In this document: piece by piece, positions 24,995 to 39,514 of the stretch
Layout of the letters: every line of letters begins with the position of its first letter
Numbering within the stretch: the first letter of the stretch is position 1
Origin: Escherichia phage N15
Length of the DNA: 46,375 bases
Reading direction: 5' to 3' (one strand)
Sequence record: NC_001901.1
Notes under the pieces: model-generated
Told to the model about the DNA's origin: nothing
Databases searched by the model: none
What the model saw: only the letters and a program-made list of their open reading frames with translations
Translations under genes and position numbers: made by a program

Positions 24995-26890
24995 ATGAGC
25001 AAGGTAAAAATCGGTGAGTTGATCAACACGCTTGTGAATGAGGTAGAGGCAATTGATGCCTCAGACCGCCCACAAGGCGACAAAACGAAGAGAATTAAAG
25101 CCGCAGCCGCACGGTATAAGAACGCGTTATTTAATGATAAAAGAAAGTTCCGTGGGAAAGGATTGCAGAAAAGAATAACCGCGAATACTTTTAACGCCTA
25201 TATGAGCAGGGCAAGAAAGCGGTTTGATGATAAATTACATCATAGCTTTGATAAAAATATTAATAAATTATCGGAAAAGTATCCTCTTTACAGCGAAGAA
25301 TTATCTTCATGGCTTTCTATGCCTACGGCTAATATTCGCCAGCACATGTCATCGTTACAATCTAAATTGAAAGAAATAATGCCGCTTGCCGAAGAGTTAT
25401 CAAATGTAAGAATAGGCTCTAAAGGCAGTGATGCAAAAATAGCAAGACTAATAAAAAAATATCCAGATTGGAGTTTTGCTCTTAGTGATTTAAACAGTGA
25501 TGATTGGAAGGAGCGCCGTGACTATCTTTATAAGTTATTCCAACAAGGCTCTGCGTTGTTAGAAGAACTACACCAGCTCAAGGTCAACCATGAGGTTCTG
25601 TACCATCTGCAGCTAAGCCCTGCGGAGCGTACATCTATACAGCAACGATGGGCCGATGTTCTGCGCGAGAAGAAGCGTAATGTTGTGGTTATTGACTACC
25701 CAACATACATGCAGTCTATCTATGATATTTTGAATAATCCTGCGACTTTATTTAGTTTAAACACTCGTTCTGGAATGGCACCTTTGGCCTTTGCTCTGGC
25801 TGCGGTATCAGGGCGAAGAATGATTGAGATAATGTTTCAGGGTGAATTTGCCGTTTCAGGAAAGTATACGGTTAATTTCTCAGGGCAAGCTAAAAAACGC
25901 TCTGAAGATAAAAGCGTAACCAGAACGATTTATACTTTATGCGAAGCAAAATTATTCGTTGAATTATTAACAGAATTGCGTTCTTGCTCTGCTGCATCTG
26001 ATTTCGATGAGGTTGTTAAAGGATATGGAAAGGATGATACAAGGTCTGAGAACGGCAGGATAAATGCTATTTTAGCAAAAGCATTTAACCCTTGGGTTAA
26101 ATCATTTTTCGGCGATGACCGTCGTGTTTATAAAGATAGCCGCGCTATTTACGCTCGCATCGCTTATGAGATGTTCTTCCGCGTCGATCCACGGTGGAAA
26201 AACGTCGACGAGGATGTGTTCTTCATGGAGATTCTCGGACACGACGATGAGAACACCCAGCTGCACTATAAGCAGTTCAAGCTGGCCAACTTCTCCAGAA
26301 CCTGGCGACCTGAAGTTGGGGATGAAAACACCAGGCTGGTGGCTCTGCAGAAACTGGACGATGAAATGCCAGGCTTTGCCAGAGGTGACGCTGGCGTCCG
26401 TCTCCATGAAACCGTTAAGCAGCTGGTGGAGCAGGACCCATCAGCAAAAATAACCAACAGCACTCTCCGGGCCTTTAAATTTAGCCCGACGATGATTAGC
26501 CGGTACCTGGAGTTTGCCGCTGATGCATTGGGGCAGTTCGTTGGCGAGAACGGGCAGTGGCAGCTGAAGATAGAGACACCTGCAATCGTCCTGCCTGATG
26601 AAGAATCCGTTGAGACCATCGACGAACCGGATGATGAGTCCCAAGACGACGAGCTGGATGAAGATGAAATTGAGCTCGACGAGGGTGGCGGCGATGAACC
26701 AACCGAAGAGGAAGGGCCAGAAGAACATCAGCCAACTGCTCTAAAACCCGTCTTCAAGCCTGCAAAAAATAACGGGGACGGAACGTACAAGATAGAGTTT
26801 GAATACGATGGAAAGCATTATGCCTGGTCCGGCCCCGCCGATAGCCCTATGGCCGCAATGCGATCCGCATGGGAAACGTACTACAGCTAA
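24995..26890 (+). CDS. telN: Protelomerase (telomere resolvase) TelN
   Basis: 631 aa starting MSKVKIGELINTLVNEVEAID. Tyrosine-recombinase-like core (…SGRRMIEIM…, …HDDENTQLHYKQF…) and an acidic tail. Adjacent to telRL. Confidence 0.97.
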   Translation: MSKVKIGELINTLVNEVEAIDASDRPQGDKTKRIKAAAARYKNALFNDKRKFRGKGLQKRITANTFNAYMSRARKRFDDKLHHSFDKNINKLSEKYPLYSEELSSWLSMPTANIRQHMSSLQSKLKEIMPLAEELSNVRIGSKGSDAKIARLIKKYPDWSFALSDLNSDDWKERRDYLYKLFQQGSALLEELHQLKVNHEVLYHLQLSPAERTSIQQRWADVLREKKRNVVVIDYPTYMQSIYDILNNPATLFSLNTRSGMAPLAFALAAVSGRRMIEIMFQGEFAVSGKYTVNFSGQAKKRSEDKSVTRTIYTLCEAKLFVELLTELRSCSAASDFDEVVKGYGKDDTRSENGRINAILAKAFNPWVKSFFGDDRRVYKDSRAIYARIAYEMFFRVDPRWKNVDEDVFFMEILGHDDENTQLHYKQFKLANFSRTWRPEVGDENTRLVALQKLDDEMPGFARGDAGVRLHETVKQLVEQDPSAKITNSTLRAFKFSPTMISRYLEFAADALGQFVGENGQWQLKIETPAIVLPDEESVETIDEPDDESQDDELDEDEIELDEGGGDEPTEEEGPEEHQPTALKPVFKPAKNNGDGTYKIEFEYDGKHYAWSGPADSPMAAMRSAWETYYS

Positions 26891-26892
26891 AA

Positions 26893-26926
26893 GAAAAGCC
26901 ACCGGTGTTAATCGGTGGCTTTTTTA
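26893..26926. terminator. Bidirectional terminator after telN
   Basis: AGCCACCG-gtgttaat-CGGTGGCT with an A-rich left flank and T6 on the right. Confidence 0.85.
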
Positions 26927-27063
26927 TTGAGGCCTGTCCCTACCCATCCCCTGCAAGGGACGGAAGGATTAGGCGGAAACTGCAGCTGCAACTACGGACA
27001 TCGCCGTCCCGACTGCAGGGACTTCCCCGCGTAAAGCGGGGCTTAAATTCGGGCTGGCCAACC

Positions 27064-27858
27064 CTATTTTTCTGCAATCGCTGGCGATGTTAGTTTCGTG
27101 GATAGCGTTTCCAGCTTTTCAATGGCCAGCTCAAAATGTGCTGGCAGCACCTTCTCCAGTTCCGTATCAATATCGGTGATCGGCAGCTCTCCACAAGACA
27201 TACTCCGGCGACCGCCACGAACTACATCGCGCAGCAGCTCCCGTTCGTAGACACGCATGTTGCCCAGAGCCGTTTCTGCAGCCGTTAATATCCGGCGCAG
27301 CTCGGCGATGATTGCCGGGAGATCATCCACGGTTATTGGGTTCGGTGATGGGTTCCTGCAGGCGCGGCGGAGAGCCATCCAGACGCCGCTAACCCATGCG
27401 TTACGGTACTGAAAACTTTGTGCTATGTCGTTTATCAGGCCCCGAAGTTCTTCTTTCTGCCGCCAGTCCAGTGGTTCACCGGCGTTCTTAGGCTCAGGCT
27501 CGACAAAAGCATACTCGCCGTTTTTCCGGATAGCTGGCAGAACCTCGTTCGTCACCCACTTGCGGAACCGCCAGGCTGTCGTCCCCTGTTTCACCGCGTC
27601 GCGGCAGCGGAGGATTATGGTGTAGAGACCAGATTCCGATACCACATTTACTTCCCTGGCCATCCGATCAAGTTTTTGTGCCTCGGTTAAACCGAGGGTC
27701 AATTTTTCATCATGATCCAGCTTACGCAATGCATCAGAAGGGTTGGCTATATTCAATGCAGCACAGATATCCAGCGCCACAAACCACGGGTCACCACCGA
27801 CAAGAACCACCCGTATAGGGTGGCTTTCCTGAAATGAAAAGACGGAGAGAGCCTTCAT
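27064..27858 (-). CDS. Bro-N/KilA-type antirepressor, distal gene of the immA anti-immunity operon
   Basis: N-terminal FSFQESHPIRVVLVGGDPWFVALDICAALNIANPSDALRKLDHDEK is a typical Bro-N/ANT domain. Confidence 0.85.
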   Translation of the reverse strand: MKALSVFSFQESHPIRVVLVGGDPWFVALDICAALNIANPSDALRKLDHDEKLTLGLTEAQKLDRMAREVNVVSESGLYTIILRCRDAVKQGTTAWRFRKWVTNEVLPAIRKNGEYAFVEPEPKNAGEPLDWRQKEELRGLINDIAQSFQYRNAWVSGVWMALRRACRNPSPNPITVDDLPAIIAELRRILTAAETALGNMRVYERELLRDVVRGGRRSMSCGELPITDIDTELEKVLPAHFELAIEKLETLSTKLTSPAIAEK

Positions 27859-28085
27859 TGCGCCTCCCCGGATTTCAGCTGCTCAGAAAGGGACAGGGAG
27901 CAGCCGCGAGCTTCCTGCGTGAGTTCGCGCGCGACCTGCAGAAGTTCCGCAGCTTCCTGCAAATACAGCGTGGCCTCATAACTGGAGATAGTGCGGTGAG
28001 CAGAGCCCACAAGCGCTTCAACCTGCAGCAGGCGTTCCTCAATCGTCTCCAGCAGGCCCTGGGCGTTTAACTGAATCTGGTTCAT
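27855..28085 (-). CDS. Small coiled-coil protein of the anti-immunity operon
   Basis: 76 aa with ATGA-type overlaps on both neighbours. Confidence 0.6.
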   Translation of the reverse strand: MNQIQLNAQGLLETIEERLLQVEALVGSAHRTISSYEATLYLQEAAELLQVARELTQEARGCSLSLSEQLKSGEAQ

Positions 28086-28246
28086 GCGATCACCTCGCTG
28101 ACCGGGATACGGGCTGACAGAACGAGGACAAAACGGCTGGCGAACTGGCGACGAGCTTCTCGCTCGGATGATGCAATGGTGGAAAGGCGGTGGATATGGG
28201 ATTTTTTGTCCGTGCGGACGACAGCTGCAAATTTGAATTTGAACAT
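28082..28246 (-). CDS. Icd-like cell-division-inhibitor family protein (first gene of the anti-immunity operon)
   Basis: MFKFKFAAVVRTDKK...SSEREARRQFASRFVLVLSARIPV resembles Icd/Ash-like small proteins. AGGA lies 9 nt before the ATG at 28246. The longer ORF to 28384 covers a structured leader. Confidence 0.6.
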   Translation of the reverse strand: MFKFKFAAVVRTDKKSHIHRLSTIASSEREARRQFASRFVLVLSARIPVSEVIA

Positions 28247-28411
28247 GGTATGCATTCCTATCTTGTATAGGGTGCTACCACCAGAGTTGAGAATCTCTAT
28301 AGGGGTGGTAGCCCAGACAGGGTTCTCAACACCGGTACAAGAAGAAACCGGCCCAACCGAAGTTGGCCCCATCTGAGCCACCATAATTCAGGTATGCGCA
28401 GATTTAACACA

Positions 28412-28490
28412 CAAAAAAACACGCTGGCGCGTGTTGTGCGCTTCTTGTCATTCGGGGTTGAGAGGCCCGGCTGCAGATTTTGCTGCAGCG
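28412..28490 (-). ncRNA. cA: Candidate leader-encoded regulatory RNA of the anti-immunity operon (cA-type, analogous to P1 c4)
   Basis: Promoter TTGACG-18-TAGAGT (28496..28525). CUGCAG-caaaau-CUGCAG hairpin. Terminator ACACGC-gcca-GCGTGT plus U7 ending about 28413. Confidence 0.5.
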
Positions 28491-28495
28491 GGGTA

Positions 28496-28525
28496 ACTCT
28501 ACCGCCAAAGCAGAACGCACGTCAA
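28496..28525 (-). promoter_or_regulatory. Candidate promoter of the anti-immunity operon (Pa)
   Basis: TTGACG (28520..28525) and TAGAGT (28496..28501) read on the minus strand. Confidence 0.5.
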
Positions 28526-28547
28526 TAATTTAGGTGGATATTTTACC

Positions 28548-28562
28548 CCGTGACCAGTCACG
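28548..28562. promoter_or_regulatory. 15-bp motif CGTGACTGGTCACGG (read on the minus strand) containing the palindrome GTGAC-TG-GTCAC; copy 1 of 2
   Basis: An exact second copy lies at 39268..39282 on the + strand. Both copies are oriented with local transcription. Confidence 0.6.
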
Positions 28563-28575
28563 TGCACAGGTGTTT

Positions 28576-28591
28576 TTATAGTTTGCTTTAC
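28576..28591. promoter_or_regulatory. Candidate fifth CB-type operator upstream of the anti-immunity region
   Basis: TTATAGTTTGCTTTAC matches the TTATAG...GCT.TAA pattern of the cB-cro operators. Overlaps a TATAAA -10-like hexamer on the minus strand. Confidence 0.35.
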
Positions 28592-28594
28592 TGA

Positions 28595-28613
28595 CTGATC
28601 AGAACCTGATCAG
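28595..28613. repeat. Two CTGATCAG palindromes separated by 3 nt (perfect 8-bp hairpin; two Dam GATC sites)
   Basis: CTGATCAG-aac-CTGATCAG, abutting the stop codon of gene 28614..28964. Confidence 0.8.
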
Positions 28614-28964
28614 TTATTGGAGTCCGGTAATCTTATTGATGACCGCAGCCACCTTAGATGTTGTCTCAAACCCCATACGGCCACGAATGAGCCACTGGAA
28701 CGGAATAGTCAGCAGGTACAGCGGAACGAACCACAAACGGTTCAGACGCTGCCAGAACGTCGCATCACGACGTTCCATCCATTCGGTATTGTCGACGACC
28801 TGGTAAGCGTATTGTCCTGGCGTTTTTGCTGCTTCCGAGTAGCAATCCTCTTCACCACAAAGAAAGTTACTTATCTGCTTCCAGTTTTCGAACCCTTCTT
28901 CTTTGAGCCGCTTTTCCAGCTCATTCCTCCACAAAACAGGCACCCATCCTCTGCGATAAATCAT
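28614..28964 (-). CDS. Hypothetical membrane protein
   Basis: 116 aa. ATG at 28964 lies 2 nt after the upstream stop. Hydrophobic LWFVPLYLLTIPFQWLI segment. Confidence 0.6.
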   Translation of the reverse strand: MIYRRGWVPVLWRNELEKRLKEEGFENWKQISNFLCGEEDCYSEAAKTPGQYAYQVVDNTEWMERRDATFWQRLNRLWFVPLYLLTIPFQWLIRGRMGFETTSKVAAVINKITGLQ

Positions 28965-32800: not shown

Positions 32801-33860
32801 TGATGTCGAATCCGGTGCGGAGGCCTGTGTTGCCTTTTCCTTCAGCTGAGGATTTGCGGTCGTTATCGAGAGCGCAAGTGATTTGCGCAGCCGGGTACAT
32901 GTTCACCAGCTGCTCGACAACGTGAATCATGTTGTTAGCGGAAACCGCAATGACTACCGCGTCAAAGCGTTTTTTCGGGTCGTTTCTGGTCGCCAGCCAG
33001 ATGGATGCCCCGGTGGCGAAACCCTCTGCAGTCGCAATTTTTTGCGCCCCCTGCAGGTCGCCAATAACAAAGCATGCACCGACGAAATCACCGTTAGTGA
33101 TGGCGCTGGTCTGGAACTTGCCACCATTCAGATCGATACGTTGCCAGCCAACAATCCGCCCGTCTTTTCTTCCGTCCAGGTGGGACAGAGGTATCGCCAT
33201 GTAAGTTGTTGGTCCACGGCTCCATTTCGCACTGTCGTGACTGGTCACGCGACGTATATCACAAGCGCCAAATACGTCACGAATTCCCTTTTTTACCGCA
33301 TAAGGCCAGGAGCCATCTTCAGCTGGCGAATGTTCCCAGGCGCGATGGAAAGCCAACCATCCAAGCAGGCGTTCCTGCTCCATCTGATTGTTTTTTAAAT
33401 CATTAACGCGTTGTTGTTCAGCTCGGAGGCGGCGTGCTTCAGCCTGGCGCTCCATGCGTGCACGTTCTTCTTCCGGCTGAGCGACCACGGTCGCACCATT
33501 CCGTTGCTGTTCACGGCGATACTCCGAAAACAGGAATGAAAAGCCACTCCAGGAGCCAGCGTCATGCGCTTTTTCAACGAAGTTAACGAAAGGATAACTG
33601 ATGCCATCCTTGCTCTGCTCAAGGCGTGAATAGATTTCCACACGGCCTTTAAGGCTCTTCTGCAGAGCTTCCGGGGAGGAATTATTGTAGGTGGTATAGC
33701 GCTCTACACCACCGCGCGGATTGAGCTGAATCTTATCAGCACACGCAGGCCAGTTGATACCGGCCATCTTCGCCAGCTCAGTCAGCTCATCACGTGCCGC
33801 GTCAAGCAGTGAAAACGGATCGCTGCCAAAGCGCTCCGCGTAGAATTCTTGTAAGGTCAT
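29886..33860 (-). CDS. repA: Replication protein RepA (primase / Toprim plus helicase multidomain replicase)
   Basis: 1324 aa. Toprim-like TAEGFATGASI...CALDNDRKSSAEGKGNTG. Walker A VRAGMGSGKST. Plasmid-type replicase known as the only N15 gene needed for plasmid replication. Confidence 0.95.
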   Translation of the reverse strand: MTLQEFYAERFGSDPFSLLDAARDELTELAKMAGINWPACADKIQLNPRGGVERYTTYNNSSPEALQKSLKGRVEIYSRLEQSKDGISYPFVNFVEKAHDAGSWSGFSFLFSEYRREQQRNGATVVAQPEEERARMERQAEARRLRAEQQRVNDLKNNQMEQERLLGWLAFHRAWEHSPAEDGSWPYAVKKGIRDVFGACDIRRVTSHDSAKWSRGPTTYMAIPLSHLDGRKDGRIVGWQRIDLNGGKFQTSAITNGDFVGACFVIGDLQGAQKIATAEGFATGASIWLATRNDPKKRFDAVVIAVSANNMIHVVEQLVNMYPAAQITCALDNDRKSSAEGKGNTGLRTGFDIMEKFSGVKCVYPTFEDDPELECSDFNDLHSLRGLKEVARQLTRNHLSRATDLLSITLNKLRTLPRLNRRTFAKELLRAVDIGMLTCPVPNSPKELMRLFSSTLRDMGIAEIYNGTVKDHITRRLNRKCRAAQTSRSFSERITNPNLRPSHITYKRFETSRMTDEVMTYAAQLQGIVIVRAGMGSGKSTGLLRPLMLQSTRGVSVAHRVSLIGGLHEMMTEGKGAKADILHYQDPGYQEMAPYANKLTICINSILKGCWQPLMRQHDFFGFDEATQGLRAILAGRAMENPVGVFNTLIDALARTEEHAIMVDADANDLLVDLAELAMKRREELGLPAWLQIHVIELPVDVRNRETNKPIRVFYTEKNRIMTEVIAAVQRGERIMLATDSSTFAEDVTMQLRLQFPDKKFLCVNQKNKQEKEVDDFTNQPKVMVKKYDGLIYSPSISSGVSIEEKHFHRHFGMFCGEVVPSDAIQMLRRDRTAQEYIIGFDKLRGKRETDPEKIKRAYAQALLETAGHSGLLTDVVFDGDRISLGVANSSFMQLKIKAAALEASARNDYASNMICIMHDDGYQVAPMATDALANSIGKDLRKEARELVFEQLMERHLSVDTPDQAEHDELIKKRTLSLDEQAQLVRWDIEKELQLDVDEVALKFYFDGGLKKVRLFETMQLDEITARRLDREEALIHFTYAYRVAGRWQQFVTTAMTREQADAEFQAKFPAITDYRVKSTPAVEIGMRGFYTLKSATLQQYFRDCGIDPKTLEGEADMDALKRARDNLLTPERRDLLNNVLRIGGFNTEKGKKKAPADLCIGILESMGLSSKTRRARDGDARPTMRSIDPDSVEFLMNIVEKRREAGLSIHARKVEKTTIEVDRDLDLNIDIHGNPRSKTEHVPDAPQSVIIQALEAIPVAVPEAWAENALPATEMEAVRLWPVASIARTFASLYMTEFMDLLSVREIRLLKAFLSQRQAVAI
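30141..30215. other. ori: Candidate replication origin core inside the 3' part of repA
   Basis: TTGGATC / GATCCAA inverted repeat (30141..30147, 30175..30181) flanks the AT-rich catgtatatctatattta. Several GATC sites. GGTGG-tttttt-CCACC hairpin. The N15 ori is reported to lie within the repA 3' region. Confidence 0.3.
33479..33496. promoter_or_regulatory. Centromere-like palindrome (SopB site) inside repA
   Basis: GAGCGACC-AC-GGTCGCAC, one arm mismatch relative to the other three sites. Architecture resembles F sopC TGGGACC-AC-GGTCCCA. Confidence 0.7.
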
Positions 33861-38945: not shown

Positions 38946-39272
38946 ATGGCACTGACACCCGCAGAACGGCAAAGGATCCGCCGAGAGAAGCTAAAAAAGC
39001 AAGGAACCACCAGGCGTGATTGGGTTCTGGAGCCGGATGAGCTGCGTATGCTCGGCGAAATTTGCATACAGCGTCGTCCGGGGCGAGAGCCGTATTCTGA
39101 AAATGAGGTTATTGGCCTCCTGATCCGCAAGAACTACAAAGAGCTGCAAAAGAAACTTTCCGGTTCGTGTTCGCGGTGTGGGAAGCAACTTCCGGTAGCC
39201 GATTGCCTGTTTGATGGCGAAGGTACATGCCAGCTGACCACTCTCAGATTGAAGCTGGCCATTAAAGCGTGA
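38946..39272 (+). CDS. Hypothetical basic protein with C-terminal CxxC
   Basis: AGGAG lies 8 nt upstream of the ATG. LTPAERQRIRREKLKKQG N-terminus. Stop codon is embedded in the 15-bp palindrome motif. Confidence 0.6.
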   Translation: MALTPAERQRIRREKLKKQGTTRRDWVLEPDELRMLGEICIQRRPGREPYSENEVIGLLIRKNYKELQKKLSGSCSRCGKQLPVADCLFDGEGTCQLTTLRLKLAIKA

Positions 39273-39282
39273 CTGGTCACGG
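39268..39282. promoter_or_regulatory. Second copy of the 15-bp motif CGTGACTGGTCACGG
   Basis: Exact match to the minus-strand reading of 28548..28562. Lies 10 nt upstream of the ATG at 39293. Confidence 0.6.
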
Positions 39283-39292
39283 AGGGTTAAAA

Positions 39293-39514
39293 ATGGATAA
39301 AAAAGCATTGTTATTCGAACGCCTTCGGCAGAGAAGCGAAAGCAGTCTGGCCAGCGGAGGTGATGGGTTTATTTTTGCCTCAATGCTGGCGTTCGACATC
39401 GGTCTGAACACAAGAACGATCCGGGGGATGCTGGACTCTGCTGTGAAAAATGGAACCCTGGAAAAAAAAGAACGTGGAGCTGGCCGTGCACATAAGTACC
39501 GGACAATTCAGTAG
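39293..39514 (+). CDS. Small winged-helix-like protein, hypothetical regulator
   Basis: GGAGGG RBS. 73 aa ending KNGTLEKKERGAGRAHKYRTIQ. Confidence 0.55.
   Translation: MDKKALLFERLRQRSESSLASGGDGFIFASMLAFDIGLNTRTIRGMLDSAVKNGTLEKKERGAGRAHKYRTIQ

What the first reader, a model, noticed from the sequence alone, without database searches (positions are those of the whole stretch)
28082..28613. P1-immI-like anti-immunity operon with promoter-proximal hairpin RNA, leader terminator and a highly structured 160-nt spacer
Read on the minus strand, the elements run in this order:
- promoter TTGACG-18-TAGAGT
- a CUGCAG-caaaau-CUGCAG hairpin
- a strong terminator (ACACGC-gcca-GCGTGT plus U7, about 28413)
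- a ~160-nt untranslated stretch with long stems (GCUACCACC...GGUGGUAGC, GUUGAGAA...UUCUCAAC, GGCCAAC-uucg-GUUGGGCC)
- the operon genes: an Icd-like 54-aa ORF, a 76-aa coiled-coil ORF and a Bro-N antirepressor
This layout matches P1 c4-icd-ant. It also fits the reported N15 control by a small processed RNA acting through premature termination. The long ORF annotated over the leader (to 28384) is probably not coding.
Basis: partly seen in the sequence, partly recalled or inferred. Interest (0 to 1): 0.55.

Follow-up and report, generated by a model that had tools for sequence, protein, structure and literature searches.

The report
N15 antirepressor operon RNA switch

Summary
The window is phage-plasmid N15 and the finding is its immA anti-immunity operon, a system described in 1999 and covered by Rfam. 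The reading is only partly right.

The layout does match P1 c4-icd-ant, and the 100-aa ORF over the leader does not evolve as a protein. The "160-nt untranslated spacer", however, is the c4/CI-type antisense RNA gene (Rfam C4, 78.8 bits, cut-off 45; window 28388-28301). The promoter-proximal hairpin plus terminator is a separate IsrK / P4-seqA-type leader RNA (62.4 bits, cut-off 50; 28489-28414) that carries the upstream target boxes a1 and b1.

- GUUGAGAA/UUCUCAAC is the antisense-target pair a'/a2.
- GCUACCACC/GGUGGUAGC is an alternative hairpin that reuses the 3' arm of the C4 fold.

In 20 related elements the two antisense boxes co-vary with both upstream and downstream targets, and b2 abuts the icd Shine-Dalgarno. 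The read-through transcript is predicted to switch between a C4-folded form and a self-paired form, as shown experimentally for Gifsy-1 isrK.

Verdict: real, ordinary, already known; low interest.

The parts
28496..28525 (-). Promoter Pa: -35 TTGACG (28525-28520), 18-nt spacer, -10 TAGAGT (28501-28496). The inferred start is near 28489.
   Evidence: the only sigma-70-like site in the region. The hexamers are conserved at the same position in relatives. The start is inferred from the spacing and from the first position of the Rfam isrK model.
28414..28489 (-). Leader RNA of IsrK / P4-seqA type (76 nt). It consists of hairpin 1 (28489-28470), hairpin 2 (28469-28453) and a single-stranded stretch, and ends at the terminator.
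   Evidence: Rfam RF01394: 62.4 bits against a cut-off of 50. Its minimum-energy fold is these three hairpins. Present in 19 of 19 relatives and in P4.
28457..28464 (-). a1 box CUCUCAAC, in the loop of leader hairpin 2. It is complementary to a' of the antisense RNA.
   Evidence: the best duplex of a' in the leader falls at the same position in all 20 elements. Cognate pairs average -9.05 kcal/mol and non-cognate pairs -4.5. Nomenclature mapped from the P1 annotation.
28441..28448 (-). b1 box ACAAGAAG. It is single-stranded, lies just 5' of the terminator and is complementary to the b' loop.
   Evidence: cognate pairs average -12.2 kcal/mol and non-cognate pairs -7.6. The position is conserved across 14 distinct loop sequences.
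28413..28435 (-). Intrinsic terminator Ta: stem AACACGC/GCGUGUU (28435-28418), loop GCCA, then U7.
   Evidence: The stem is conserved, with 2 compensatory pairs.
28301..28388 (-). CA RNA gene, the homologue of P1 c4 and P4 CI. It has a 17-bp closing stem (28383-28367 with 28322-28306), hairpin 1 (28366-28353) and hairpin 2 (28352-28331). The predicted mature RNA is about 28382-28304 (79 nt), by alignment to the annotated ends of P1 C4.
   Evidence: Rfam RF01695: 78.8 bits against a cut-off of 45. The minimum-energy fold equals the Rfam fold, z = -4.7. Covariation. P1 C4 ends. The mature ends are inferred, not measured.
28336..28347 (-). b' box: the 12-nt loop UUUCUUCUUGUA of hairpin 2.
   Evidence: It corresponds to the P1 loop CACUAAC, which pairs with b1 and b2.
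28323..28330 (-). a' box: the single-stranded GUUGAGAA between hairpin 2 and the 3' arm.
28286..28293 (-). a2 box UUCUCAAC, in the loop of a 4-bp mini-hairpin (AGAG 28298-28295 with CUCU 28286-28283).
   Evidence: 90% paired with a', covariation score 0.635, 0 of 500 shuffles as high. Mini-stem counts.
28274..28312 (-). Alternative hairpin: the 3' end of the C4 closing stem (GCUACCACC, 28312-28304) pairs with GGUGGUAGC (28282-28274) and carries a2 in its loop. It can form only in the unprocessed read-through transcript.
   Evidence: 98% paired, 5 of 9 pairs compensatory. It is part of the predicted minimum-energy fold in N15 and in 17 of 18 relatives.
28254..28268 (-). b2 box (UACAAGA, 28267-28261), running into the icd Shine-Dalgarno AGGA (28259-28256).
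   Evidence: the predicted duplex of b' covers AUACAAGAUAGGAAU. It occupies the same position next to the SD in all 20 elements and in P1.
28082..28246 (-). icd, an Icd-like cell-division inhibitor (54 aa).
   Evidence: NCBIfam NF033153: 66.8 bits against a cut-off of 25. Variable sites at codon positions 1/2/3 are 18/18/46. Named in the phiKO2 annotation.
27855..28085 (-). antA, the antirepressor (76 aa). Its start overlaps the icd stop.
   Evidence: ORF. The phiKO2 Gp28 note reads 'similar to antirepressor encoded by N15 AntA'. No Pfam or NCBIfam family matches it.
27064..27858 (-). antB, the auxiliary antirepressor, with a Bro-N domain (264 aa). Its start overlaps the antA stop.
   Evidence: Pfam PF02498: 69.4 bits. 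phiKO2 Gp27 note.
26890..26919 (-). End of the operon: GCCACCG-auuaaca-CGGUGGC followed by a U-run. It is shared tail-to-tail with telN.
   Evidence: Read from the sequence. The equivalent site in phiKO2 is annotated as a putative bidirectional terminator. It was not scanned separately.
28549..28562 (.). Conserved 14-bp palindrome CGTGACTGGTCACG at -73 to -60 of Pa. It is operator-like and its binding protein is unknown. Whether it belongs to this system is uncertain.
   Evidence: Three exact copies in the window, against 0.006 expected. It is conserved upstream of Pa in the N15/phiKO2-type relatives. It is neither a SopB IR nor CB-operator-like.

Best explanation
This is the immA anti-immunity operon of N15, built as an 'IsrK-C4' RNA immunity module.

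Proposed sequence of events:
1. Promoter Pa fires, with the start near 28489.
2. Most transcripts stop at the intrinsic terminator Ta. This gives a 76-nt leader RNA that displays box a1 in a hairpin loop and box b1 as single strand.
3. Transcripts that read through contain the CA RNA, the homologue of P1 c4 and P4 CI.
4. When this segment adopts its closed fold it can be cut out, by analogy with P1 and P4 through RNase P at the 5' end, as a roughly 79-nt stable RNA that exposes boxes a' and b'.
5. CA RNA pairs in trans with a2 and b2 on read-through mRNA. Because b2 runs into the icd Shine-Dalgarno, icd is not translated, and the translationally coupled antA and antB are not expressed.
6. CA RNA also pairs with a1 and b1 on nascent leaders, next to Ta. 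By analogy with P4, this increases termination and so limits both the operon and CA itself.

The unprocessed read-through RNA has a second, thermodynamically preferred form. In it a1/b1 pair in cis with a'/b', and the 3' arm of C4 forms the alternative hairpin.

What is shown here: the elements, their homology, the covariation of structures and of antisense-target pairs, and the coding status of the ORFs.
What comes from the literature: repression of the antirepressor by a small processed RNA called CA.
What is inferred: the processing sites, the effect on Ta, translational coupling, and which conformer acts in vivo.
For: Identity:
- 99.8-100% identity to GenBank U63086 (N15 telN-cA).
- The four published N15 SopB sites are present.

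Homology:
- C4 matches at 78.8 bits and isrK at 62.4 bits, both above curated cut-offs. c4-a1b1 matches at 42.4 bits, just below its cut-off.
- The same tandem occurs in 19 of 19 relatives, in P4 and, more weakly, in P1.

Structure:
- 95% of cells are paired and 24 of 51 pairs carry compensatory changes, with 0 of 500 shuffles as high.

Antisense logic:
- 14 distinct b' loops and 9 distinct a' boxes each find their best complement at the same leader and downstream positions.
- Cognate duplexes are 3.4-4.7 kcal/mol better than non-cognate ones.
- a'/a2 covariation score is 0.635.
- b2 abuts the SD, as in the P1 annotation.

Two conformers:
- The minimum-energy fold of the read-through RNA is the cis-paired form in 18 of 19 elements, by 2.4-15 kcal/mol.
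- The alternative stem co-varies.
- The same switch was demonstrated by mutation and native gels in Gifsy-1.

Literature:
- The N15 antirepressor is negatively regulated by the small RNA CA.
- The IsrK-C4 system is described for P4, P1, P7 and N15, with the C4-like RNA as the repressor.
- The cA locus annotation covers the C4 RNA.
Against: - No expression data could be examined. The primary N15 paper (Ravin et al. 1999) and the P4 terminator papers are not in the held library.
- The leader contains no antiterminator alternative. Its minimum-energy fold already includes the terminator, so how pairing at a1/b1 would raise termination is not explained by structure prediction.
- In Gifsy-1 the homologous short leader activates the operon rather than repressing it.
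- c4-a1b1 scores just under its Rfam cut-off in N15 (42.4 against 46.7).
Confidence: 0.82

Rival explanations
1. The promoter-proximal hairpin-plus-terminator RNA (28489-28414) is the c4/CA-like repressor, and the following 160 nt are only a structured untranslated spacer.
For: The 76-nt leader is a plausible stable small RNA. It has an intrinsic terminator and matches an Hfq-binding sRNA family. Its size fits 'about 75-80 nt'.
Against: The full-length C4 model matches inside the 'spacer' (78.8 bits), with covariation for its fold. The leader matches the target-site families isrK and c4-a1b1, not C4. The cA locus annotation excludes the leader. Its Gifsy-1 homologue is an activator.
Confidence: 0.04
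2. IsrK-type role for the leader. The abundant terminated leader RNA is itself a trans-acting regulator. It pairs through a1/b1 with a'/b', either titrating CA RNA or opening the self-paired read-through transcript. It thereby activates icd-antA-antB and gives a three-RNA switch. This may act alongside the best explanation.
For: The isrK homology is above the cut-off. a1/b1 are complementary to a'/b' in all 20 elements. The cis-paired conformer is predicted in 18 of 19 elements. In Gifsy-1, IsrK supplied in trans raises anrP translation more than 100-fold, and structure-specific mutants behave as expected. IsrK-like sequences are required in P4-like prophages.
Against: Nothing of the kind has been reported for N15 in the papers I could read. 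The N15 leader may simply be the by-product of attenuation. In Gifsy-1 the downstream ORF layout differs.
Confidence: 0.3
3. Pure P1-type control. CA RNA acts only by blocking icd translation at a2/b2, with Rho-dependent polarity on antA and antB. Ta is a constitutive attenuator that does not respond to CA, and a1/b1 serve another purpose, for example folding or processing.
For: b2 overlaps the SD, as in P1. The start and stop codons of icd, antA and antB overlap. The leader folds into the terminator without help and has no antiterminator.
Against: N15 and P4 share a strong terminator version of the leader (62.4 and 60.8 bits), which P1 lacks (35.1 bits, below the cut-off). a1/b1 co-vary with a'/b' as tightly as a2/b2 do, so pairing there is under selection.
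Confidence: 0.2
4. A protein repressor. The 100-aa ORF 28384-28082, annotated as the 'cA secondary immunity repressor' and matching the Pfam Ash family, encodes the regulator.
For: GenBank U63086 annotates it as a CDS. Its first 42 residues match Pfam Phage_ASH at 37.4 bits. The AUG in the C4 5' arm is invariant, and the equivalent Gifsy-1 orf45 is translated.
Against: The ORF from that AUG ends 0 to 600 nt after C4 and shares a frame with the next gene in only 7 of 20 elements. There is no third-position excess over C4 (15/18/16), against 18/18/46 in icd. Substitutions instead follow RNA pairing. The C-terminal 54 aa are simply Icd.
Confidence: 0.03

Closest known systems
P1/P7 immI: c4 antisense RNA - icd - ant1/2
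   Same: The order is the same: promoter, a1/b1, C4-type RNA, a2/b2, icd, antirepressor. Both RNAs belong to the same Rfam family (P1 68.8 bits, N15 78.8 bits). a' is single-stranded and b' is a hairpin loop in both. b2 lies on the icd SD in both. Both Icd proteins match NF033153. The 3' arm of C4 can also pair downstream around a2 in P1 (read).
   Different: P1 has only a weak match to the terminator-containing leader (isrK 35.1 bits, below the cut-off), whereas N15 has a strong intrinsic terminator. The antirepressors are unrelated: N15 AntB against P1 Ant1 gives E = 3.3, and the two Icd proteins give no pairwise BLAST alignment. The P1 promoters carry a C1 operator. No CB-type operator is seen at Pa.
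Satellite phage P4 immunity: seqA - terminator - CI RNA - seqC
   Same: An isrK-type leader with a strong terminator (60.8 bits) is followed by a C4-family RNA (74.9 bits). The small RNA is cut from the leader of the operon it controls. The literature equates seqA with IsrK and CI with C4, and lists N15 as using the same system. In both, the RNA gene was first annotated as a protein (P4 'cI gene product'; N15 'cA').
   Different: In P4 the two RNAs are 107 nt apart, against 25 nt in N15. P4 controls its replication (alpha) operon, not icd and an antirepressor. In P4 this is the primary immunity system, whereas in N15 it is secondary to the CB repressor.
Salmonella Gifsy-1 isrK - STnc1160/orf45 - anrP
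   Same: The leader belongs to the same family, and a processed RNA lies downstream over an ORF that starts at the AUG in the C4 5' arm. An antirepressor-like gene follows. Cis pairing of the leader with the downstream RNA gives two conformers, which matches the predictions for N15.
   Different: In Gifsy-1 the short leader was shown to activate translation in trans, and no icd is described there. Nothing equivalent has been tested in N15.
phiKO2 gp27-gp30 and other N15-like telomere phage-plasmids
   Same: The operon is directly orthologous: a terminator, 'Gp30' lying over C4, then icd, antA and antB. Identity is 77-97%.
   Different: The a and b box sequences differ and are reassorted among relatives, implying different immunity specificities. 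In PY54 the module precedes icd alone.

Membership tests
C4 antisense RNA (Rfam RF01695; P1/P7 c4, P4 CI) | Match to the covariance model above the curated gathering score | tested here: met
   78.8 bits against 45, full length 1-87, window 28388-28301 on the minus strand.
C4 antisense RNA (Rfam RF01695; P1/P7 c4, P4 CI) | A long closing stem enclosing two hairpins, maintained by compensatory changes | tested here: met
   The closing stem is 100% paired with 8 of 17 pairs compensatory. Hairpin 1 has 4 of 5 and hairpin 2 has 2 of 5 compensatory pairs. The minimum-energy fold equals this structure, z = -4.7.
C4 antisense RNA (Rfam RF01695; P1/P7 c4, P4 CI) | [quoted passage not shown] | tested here: met
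   b2 at 28267-28261 runs into the SD at 28259-28256. The geometry is the same as annotated in P1.
C4 antisense RNA (Rfam RF01695; P1/P7 c4, P4 CI) | Excised from a longer transcript (RNase P at the 5' end) to a stable RNA of about 77 nt that represses in trans | not testable with these tools
   Only the literature bears on this: a 'small processed RNA' named CA that negatively regulates the antirepressor. The ends 28382 and 28304 are inferred from the P1 annotation.
IsrK / P4 seqA leader RNA (Rfam RF01394) with c4-a1b1 (RF03163) | Match to the covariance model above the curated score | tested here: met
   isrK scores 62.4 bits against 50. The overlapping c4-a1b1 model scores 42.4 against 46.7, just below its cut-off. 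It is above the cut-off in 6 relatives.
IsrK / P4 seqA leader RNA (Rfam RF01394) with c4-a1b1 (RF03163) | Two 5' hairpins, then an intrinsic terminator, lying directly upstream of a C4-family RNA and carrying copies of its target boxes | tested here: met
   19 of 19 relatives; P4.
IsrK / P4 seqA leader RNA (Rfam RF01394) with c4-a1b1 (RF03163) | Hfq binding and trans-activation of the downstream genes (Gifsy-1) | not testable with these tools
   Shown only for Gifsy-1.
P1 immI operon (c4-icd-ant) | Gene order: c4 RNA, then icd, then an antirepressor in one transcription unit, with an Icd homologue | tested here: met
   ORFs with overlapping start and stop codons. Icd matches NF033153 at 66.8 bits in N15 and 52.6 bits in P1. 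P1 layout.
P1 immI operon (c4-icd-ant) | An antirepressor homologous to P1 Ant1/Ant2 | tested here: not met
   BLASTP of AntB against Ant1 gives E = 3.3. AntA matches no family. N15 works like immI but carries different antirepressor proteins.
P1 immI operon (c4-icd-ant) | The promoter is under the primary repressor through an operator (P1 Oc4) | tested here: inconclusive
   No sequence resembling the AT-rich CB operators is seen at Pa. An unrelated conserved palindrome lies at -73 to -60.
P4-type immunity (RNA-dependent premature termination) | The small RNA increases termination at the intrinsic terminator between seqA/a1b1 and the RNA gene | not testable with these tools
The architecture is met. 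Those papers are not held.

The most novel reading that the evidence does not exclude
In N15 and its relatives the read-through transcript may be a conserved two-state RNA switch, and the terminated 76-nt leader may be a trans-acting anti-antisense RNA, as IsrK is in Gifsy-1. One state is the C4 fold that releases the repressor. The other is a self-paired form in which a1/b1 mask a'/b' and the C4 3' arm forms the alternative hairpin. immA would then be a three-RNA circuit whose output depends on the ratio of leader to CA RNA, not a simple antisense repressor. A separate open point is that the conserved palindrome CGTGACTGGTCACG upstream of Pa, with two further copies in the genome, may mark an undescribed DNA-binding regulator of this operon.
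Probability: 0.3. Interest if true: 0.35.

Novelty: already known. Interest (0 to 1): 0.12.

Why it matters
This region decides whether N15's secondary, anti-immunity pathway can inactivate the prophage repressor, so it bears on lysogeny maintenance in linear phage-plasmids. These elements are now known to be common in Klebsiella and other Enterobacteriaceae: 239 plasmid records matched the leader.

Nothing here changes the established picture. The practical value is in correcting annotation:
- The 'spacer' is the RNA gene.
- The 'cA' and 'Ash' proteins are translations of that RNA.
- The a and b box sequences define immunity specificities that are reassorted among relatives.

Tried and rejected
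1. I guessed from memory that the palindrome CGTGACTGGTCACG upstream of Pa was an N15 SopB centromere site. That was wrong. The published IRs are GTGCGACCnnGGTCGCAC and lie elsewhere in the window.
2. The palindrome also does not resemble the AT-rich CB/Cro operator region. Its flanks differ among the three copies, so it is not a shared RNA hairpin.
3. An extended stem bridging the U-tract (CGCAC with GUGUG, 28440-28436 / 28412-28408) appears in the minimum-energy fold. It is only 78% paired on the alignment, with 1 compensatory pair, and z = -1.7, so I did not count it as a part.
4. I looked for an antiterminator alternative in the leader. There is none: its minimum-energy fold already contains the terminator.
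5. P1 Ant1 and P1 Icd were compared pairwise with the N15 proteins. There is no pairwise similarity. Only the Icd profile links them.
6. I tried to read Ravin et al. 1999, Mardanov and Ravin 2007 and the phiKO2 genome paper. None is held.
7. A first regex-based extraction of the loops failed for several relatives. I replaced it with slices anchored on the 3' end.
8. The large protein-homology, structure-prediction and metagenome tools were not used, because the question was settled without them.
Full report
WHAT THE WINDOW IS

The stretch 27000-28700 is 99.8% identical, and the leader 100% identical, to GenBank U63086, 'Bacteriophage N15 telomerase (telN) and secondary immunity repressor (cA) genes'. 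The window also holds the protelomerase and the 1324-aa RepA ORFs. It contains exactly the four published N15 SopB centromere repeats. The finding therefore lies in the immA region of N15 itself.

THE OBSERVATION

This covers the promoter TTGACG-18-TAGAGT (28525-28496), the 7-bp hairpin at 28489-28470, the terminator at 28435-28418 with U7, and about 166 nt up to the icd ATG at 28246. It also covers the ORFs of 54, 76 and 264 aa and the 100-aa ORF reaching 28384. The folds are far more stable than shuffled sequence, at z = -4.7 for the C4 segment and z = -6.1 for the whole 264 nt.

WHAT THE ELEMENTS ARE

An Rfam scan gives two matches above curated thresholds and one just below:
- C4 antisense RNA (RF01695): 78.8 bits against 45, at 28388-28301.
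- isrK (RF01394): 62.4 bits against 50, at 28489-28414. This is exactly the hairpin plus terminator.
- c4-a1b1 (RF03163): 42.4 bits against 46.7, at 28502-28449.

The region is therefore not 'small RNA, terminator, spacer, genes'. It is leader RNA with target boxes, terminator, antisense RNA gene, target boxes, then genes. The same tandem is found in all 19 relatives I fetched. These include N15-like and phiKO2-like telomere phage-plasmids, PY54, the P2-like phage P88, lambdoid and Stx phages, and an Aeromonas phage. It is also found in P4 (isrK 60.8 bits, C4 74.9 bits). P1 has C4 (68.8 bits) and c4-a1b1 (51 bits), but only a sub-threshold isrK match (35.1 bits).

ANTISENSE LOGIC

I mapped the P1 nomenclature from the P1 record: a' is the single-stranded box after hairpin 2, and b' is the hairpin-2 loop. 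In N15:
- a' = GUUGAGAA (28330-28323). It pairs with a1 CUCUCAAC (28464-28457, in the loop of leader hairpin 2) and with a2 UUCUCAAC (28293-28286).
- b' = UUUCUUCUUGUA (28347-28336). It pairs with b1 ACAAGAAG (28448-28441) and with b2 UACAAGA (28267-28261). b2 runs into the icd SD AGGA (28259-28256).

Across 20 elements there are 14 different b' loops and 9 different a' boxes. In every element the best complement sits at the same leader and downstream positions. Cognate duplexes average -9.0 to -12.2 kcal/mol, against -4.5 to -7.6 for non-cognate pairs. On the alignment, a'/a2 is 90% paired with a covariation score of 0.635, and 0 of 500 shuffles reach it. The a and b boxes assort independently among relatives, which is what exchangeable immunity specificities would produce.

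- The C4 closing stem is 100% paired, with 8 of 17 compensatory pairs.
- Leader hairpin 1 has 6 of 7.
It uses the 3' end of the C4 closing stem, so the two cannot coexist.

Folding the whole read-through RNA resolves this conflict. The minimum-energy structure pairs a1/b1 in cis with a'/b', opens the C4 closing stem and forms the alternative hairpin. This self-paired form is preferred by 2.4-15 kcal/mol in 18 of 19 elements, PY54 being the exception. It corresponds to 'structure A' of the Gifsy-1 isrK-orf45 transcript, which was demonstrated there by compensatory mutations and native gels.

CODING STATUS

- icd matches the Icd-like family NF033153 (66.8 bits), as does P1 Icd. It shows a clear third-position excess of variation (18/18/46).
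- The ORF starting at the invariant AUG in the C4 5' arm ends anywhere from 0 to 600 nt beyond C4. It is in frame with the next gene in only 7 of 20 elements. It has no codon periodicity over C4 (15/18/16).
- The N15 100-aa 'cA' ORF is therefore an accidental in-frame fusion with icd. Its Pfam 'Phage_ASH' match is a match to translated RNA.
One caveat is that the equivalent Gifsy-1 orf45 is reported to be translated as a regulatory uORF.
- The phiKO2 annotation names the 76-aa product AntA (the antirepressor) and the Bro-N protein AntB (auxiliary).

MECHANISM

Supported by homology, by covariation and by the literature I could read: CA RNA, the C4 homologue, is the trans-acting repressor of the antirepressor operon. 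It occludes the icd ribosome-binding site through b'/b2, with a'/a2 as the second contact.

Inferred:
- the processing ends (28382 and 28304, by alignment to P1 C4);
- polarity or translational coupling onto antA and antB, whose start and stop codons overlap;
- CA-enhanced termination at Ta through a1/b1.

Structure prediction gives no antiterminator that would explain this last step. The Gifsy-1 work raises the alternative, or additional, possibility that the terminated leader acts in trans against CA.

COMPARISON AND NOVELTY

The RNA module is a member of the IsrK-C4 family. Its leader is of the P4 type (strong terminator), its cargo order is of the P1 type (icd, then an antirepressor), and its antirepressor proteins are unrelated to P1 Ant. 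Barquist et al. 2013 already describe the 'IsrK-C4 immunity system' (seqA and CI in P4), state that P1, P7 and N15 use similar systems, and cite Ravin et al. 1999. The finding is therefore real but already known. What this analysis adds is a corrected anatomy.

LEFT UNEXPLAINED

A perfect 14-mer CGTGACTGGTCACG lies at -73 to -60 of Pa. It has two further exact copies, inside repA and at 39268. It is conserved upstream of Pa in the N15/phiKO2-type relatives. It is neither a SopB site nor CB-operator-like.

Noticed in passing
window 28549-28562, 33236-33249, 39268-39281: Three exact copies of the 14-bp palindrome CGTGACTGGTCACG, where 0.006 are expected by chance. One lies at -73 to -60 of Pa, one inside repA and one just before an ATG near 39300. 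The Pa copy is conserved, exactly or with one change, in all N15/phiKO2-type relatives. It is not the SopB centromere repeat and is unlike the CB/Cro operators. The binding protein is unknown.
   Followed up: partly
window 28301-28384 (minus strand); L011 824-931: Pfam PF10554 'Phage_ASH' matches the translation of the C4/CA RNA gene, and NCBI annotates an 'ash family protein' CDS lying exactly on the C4 RNA. The stretch has no codon periodicity, and the ORF length and frame are not conserved. This 'protein family' therefore looks like a translated RNA gene.
   Followed up: partly
L009 323-1474 and L019 323-1474 (Stx2a_WGPS2, mEp460): The complete isrK leader, terminator and C4 RNA (683-871) lie inside an annotated 1152-nt 'transcriptional regulator/antirepressor' CDS. 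The CDS is probably over-extended at its 5' end.
   Followed up: no
relatives L002-L020, boxes listed: The a and b specificity boxes assort independently. For example, the KONIH4 plasmid combines the b loop of PhiR46_1 with the a box of N15. This suggests mosaic exchange of immunity specificities among telomere phage-plasmids.
   Followed up: partly
window 19863-20048 (+): Rfam STnc100 (RF02076) matches at 72.5 bits, above its cut-off of 47. This is a second small-RNA family hit in the N15 genome, outside the finding.
   Followed up: no
window about 28592-28612 (minus strand): An inverted repeat ACUGAUCAG-guu-CUGAUCAGU lies immediately after the stop codon of the upstream 146-aa ORF, with no U-tract following it.
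   Followed up: no
L006 (PY54) 702-963: PY54 is the only one of 19 elements whose read-through transcript is predicted to prefer the C4 fold over the self-paired form. Its module precedes icd alone, with antA located elsewhere in the genome.
   Followed up: no
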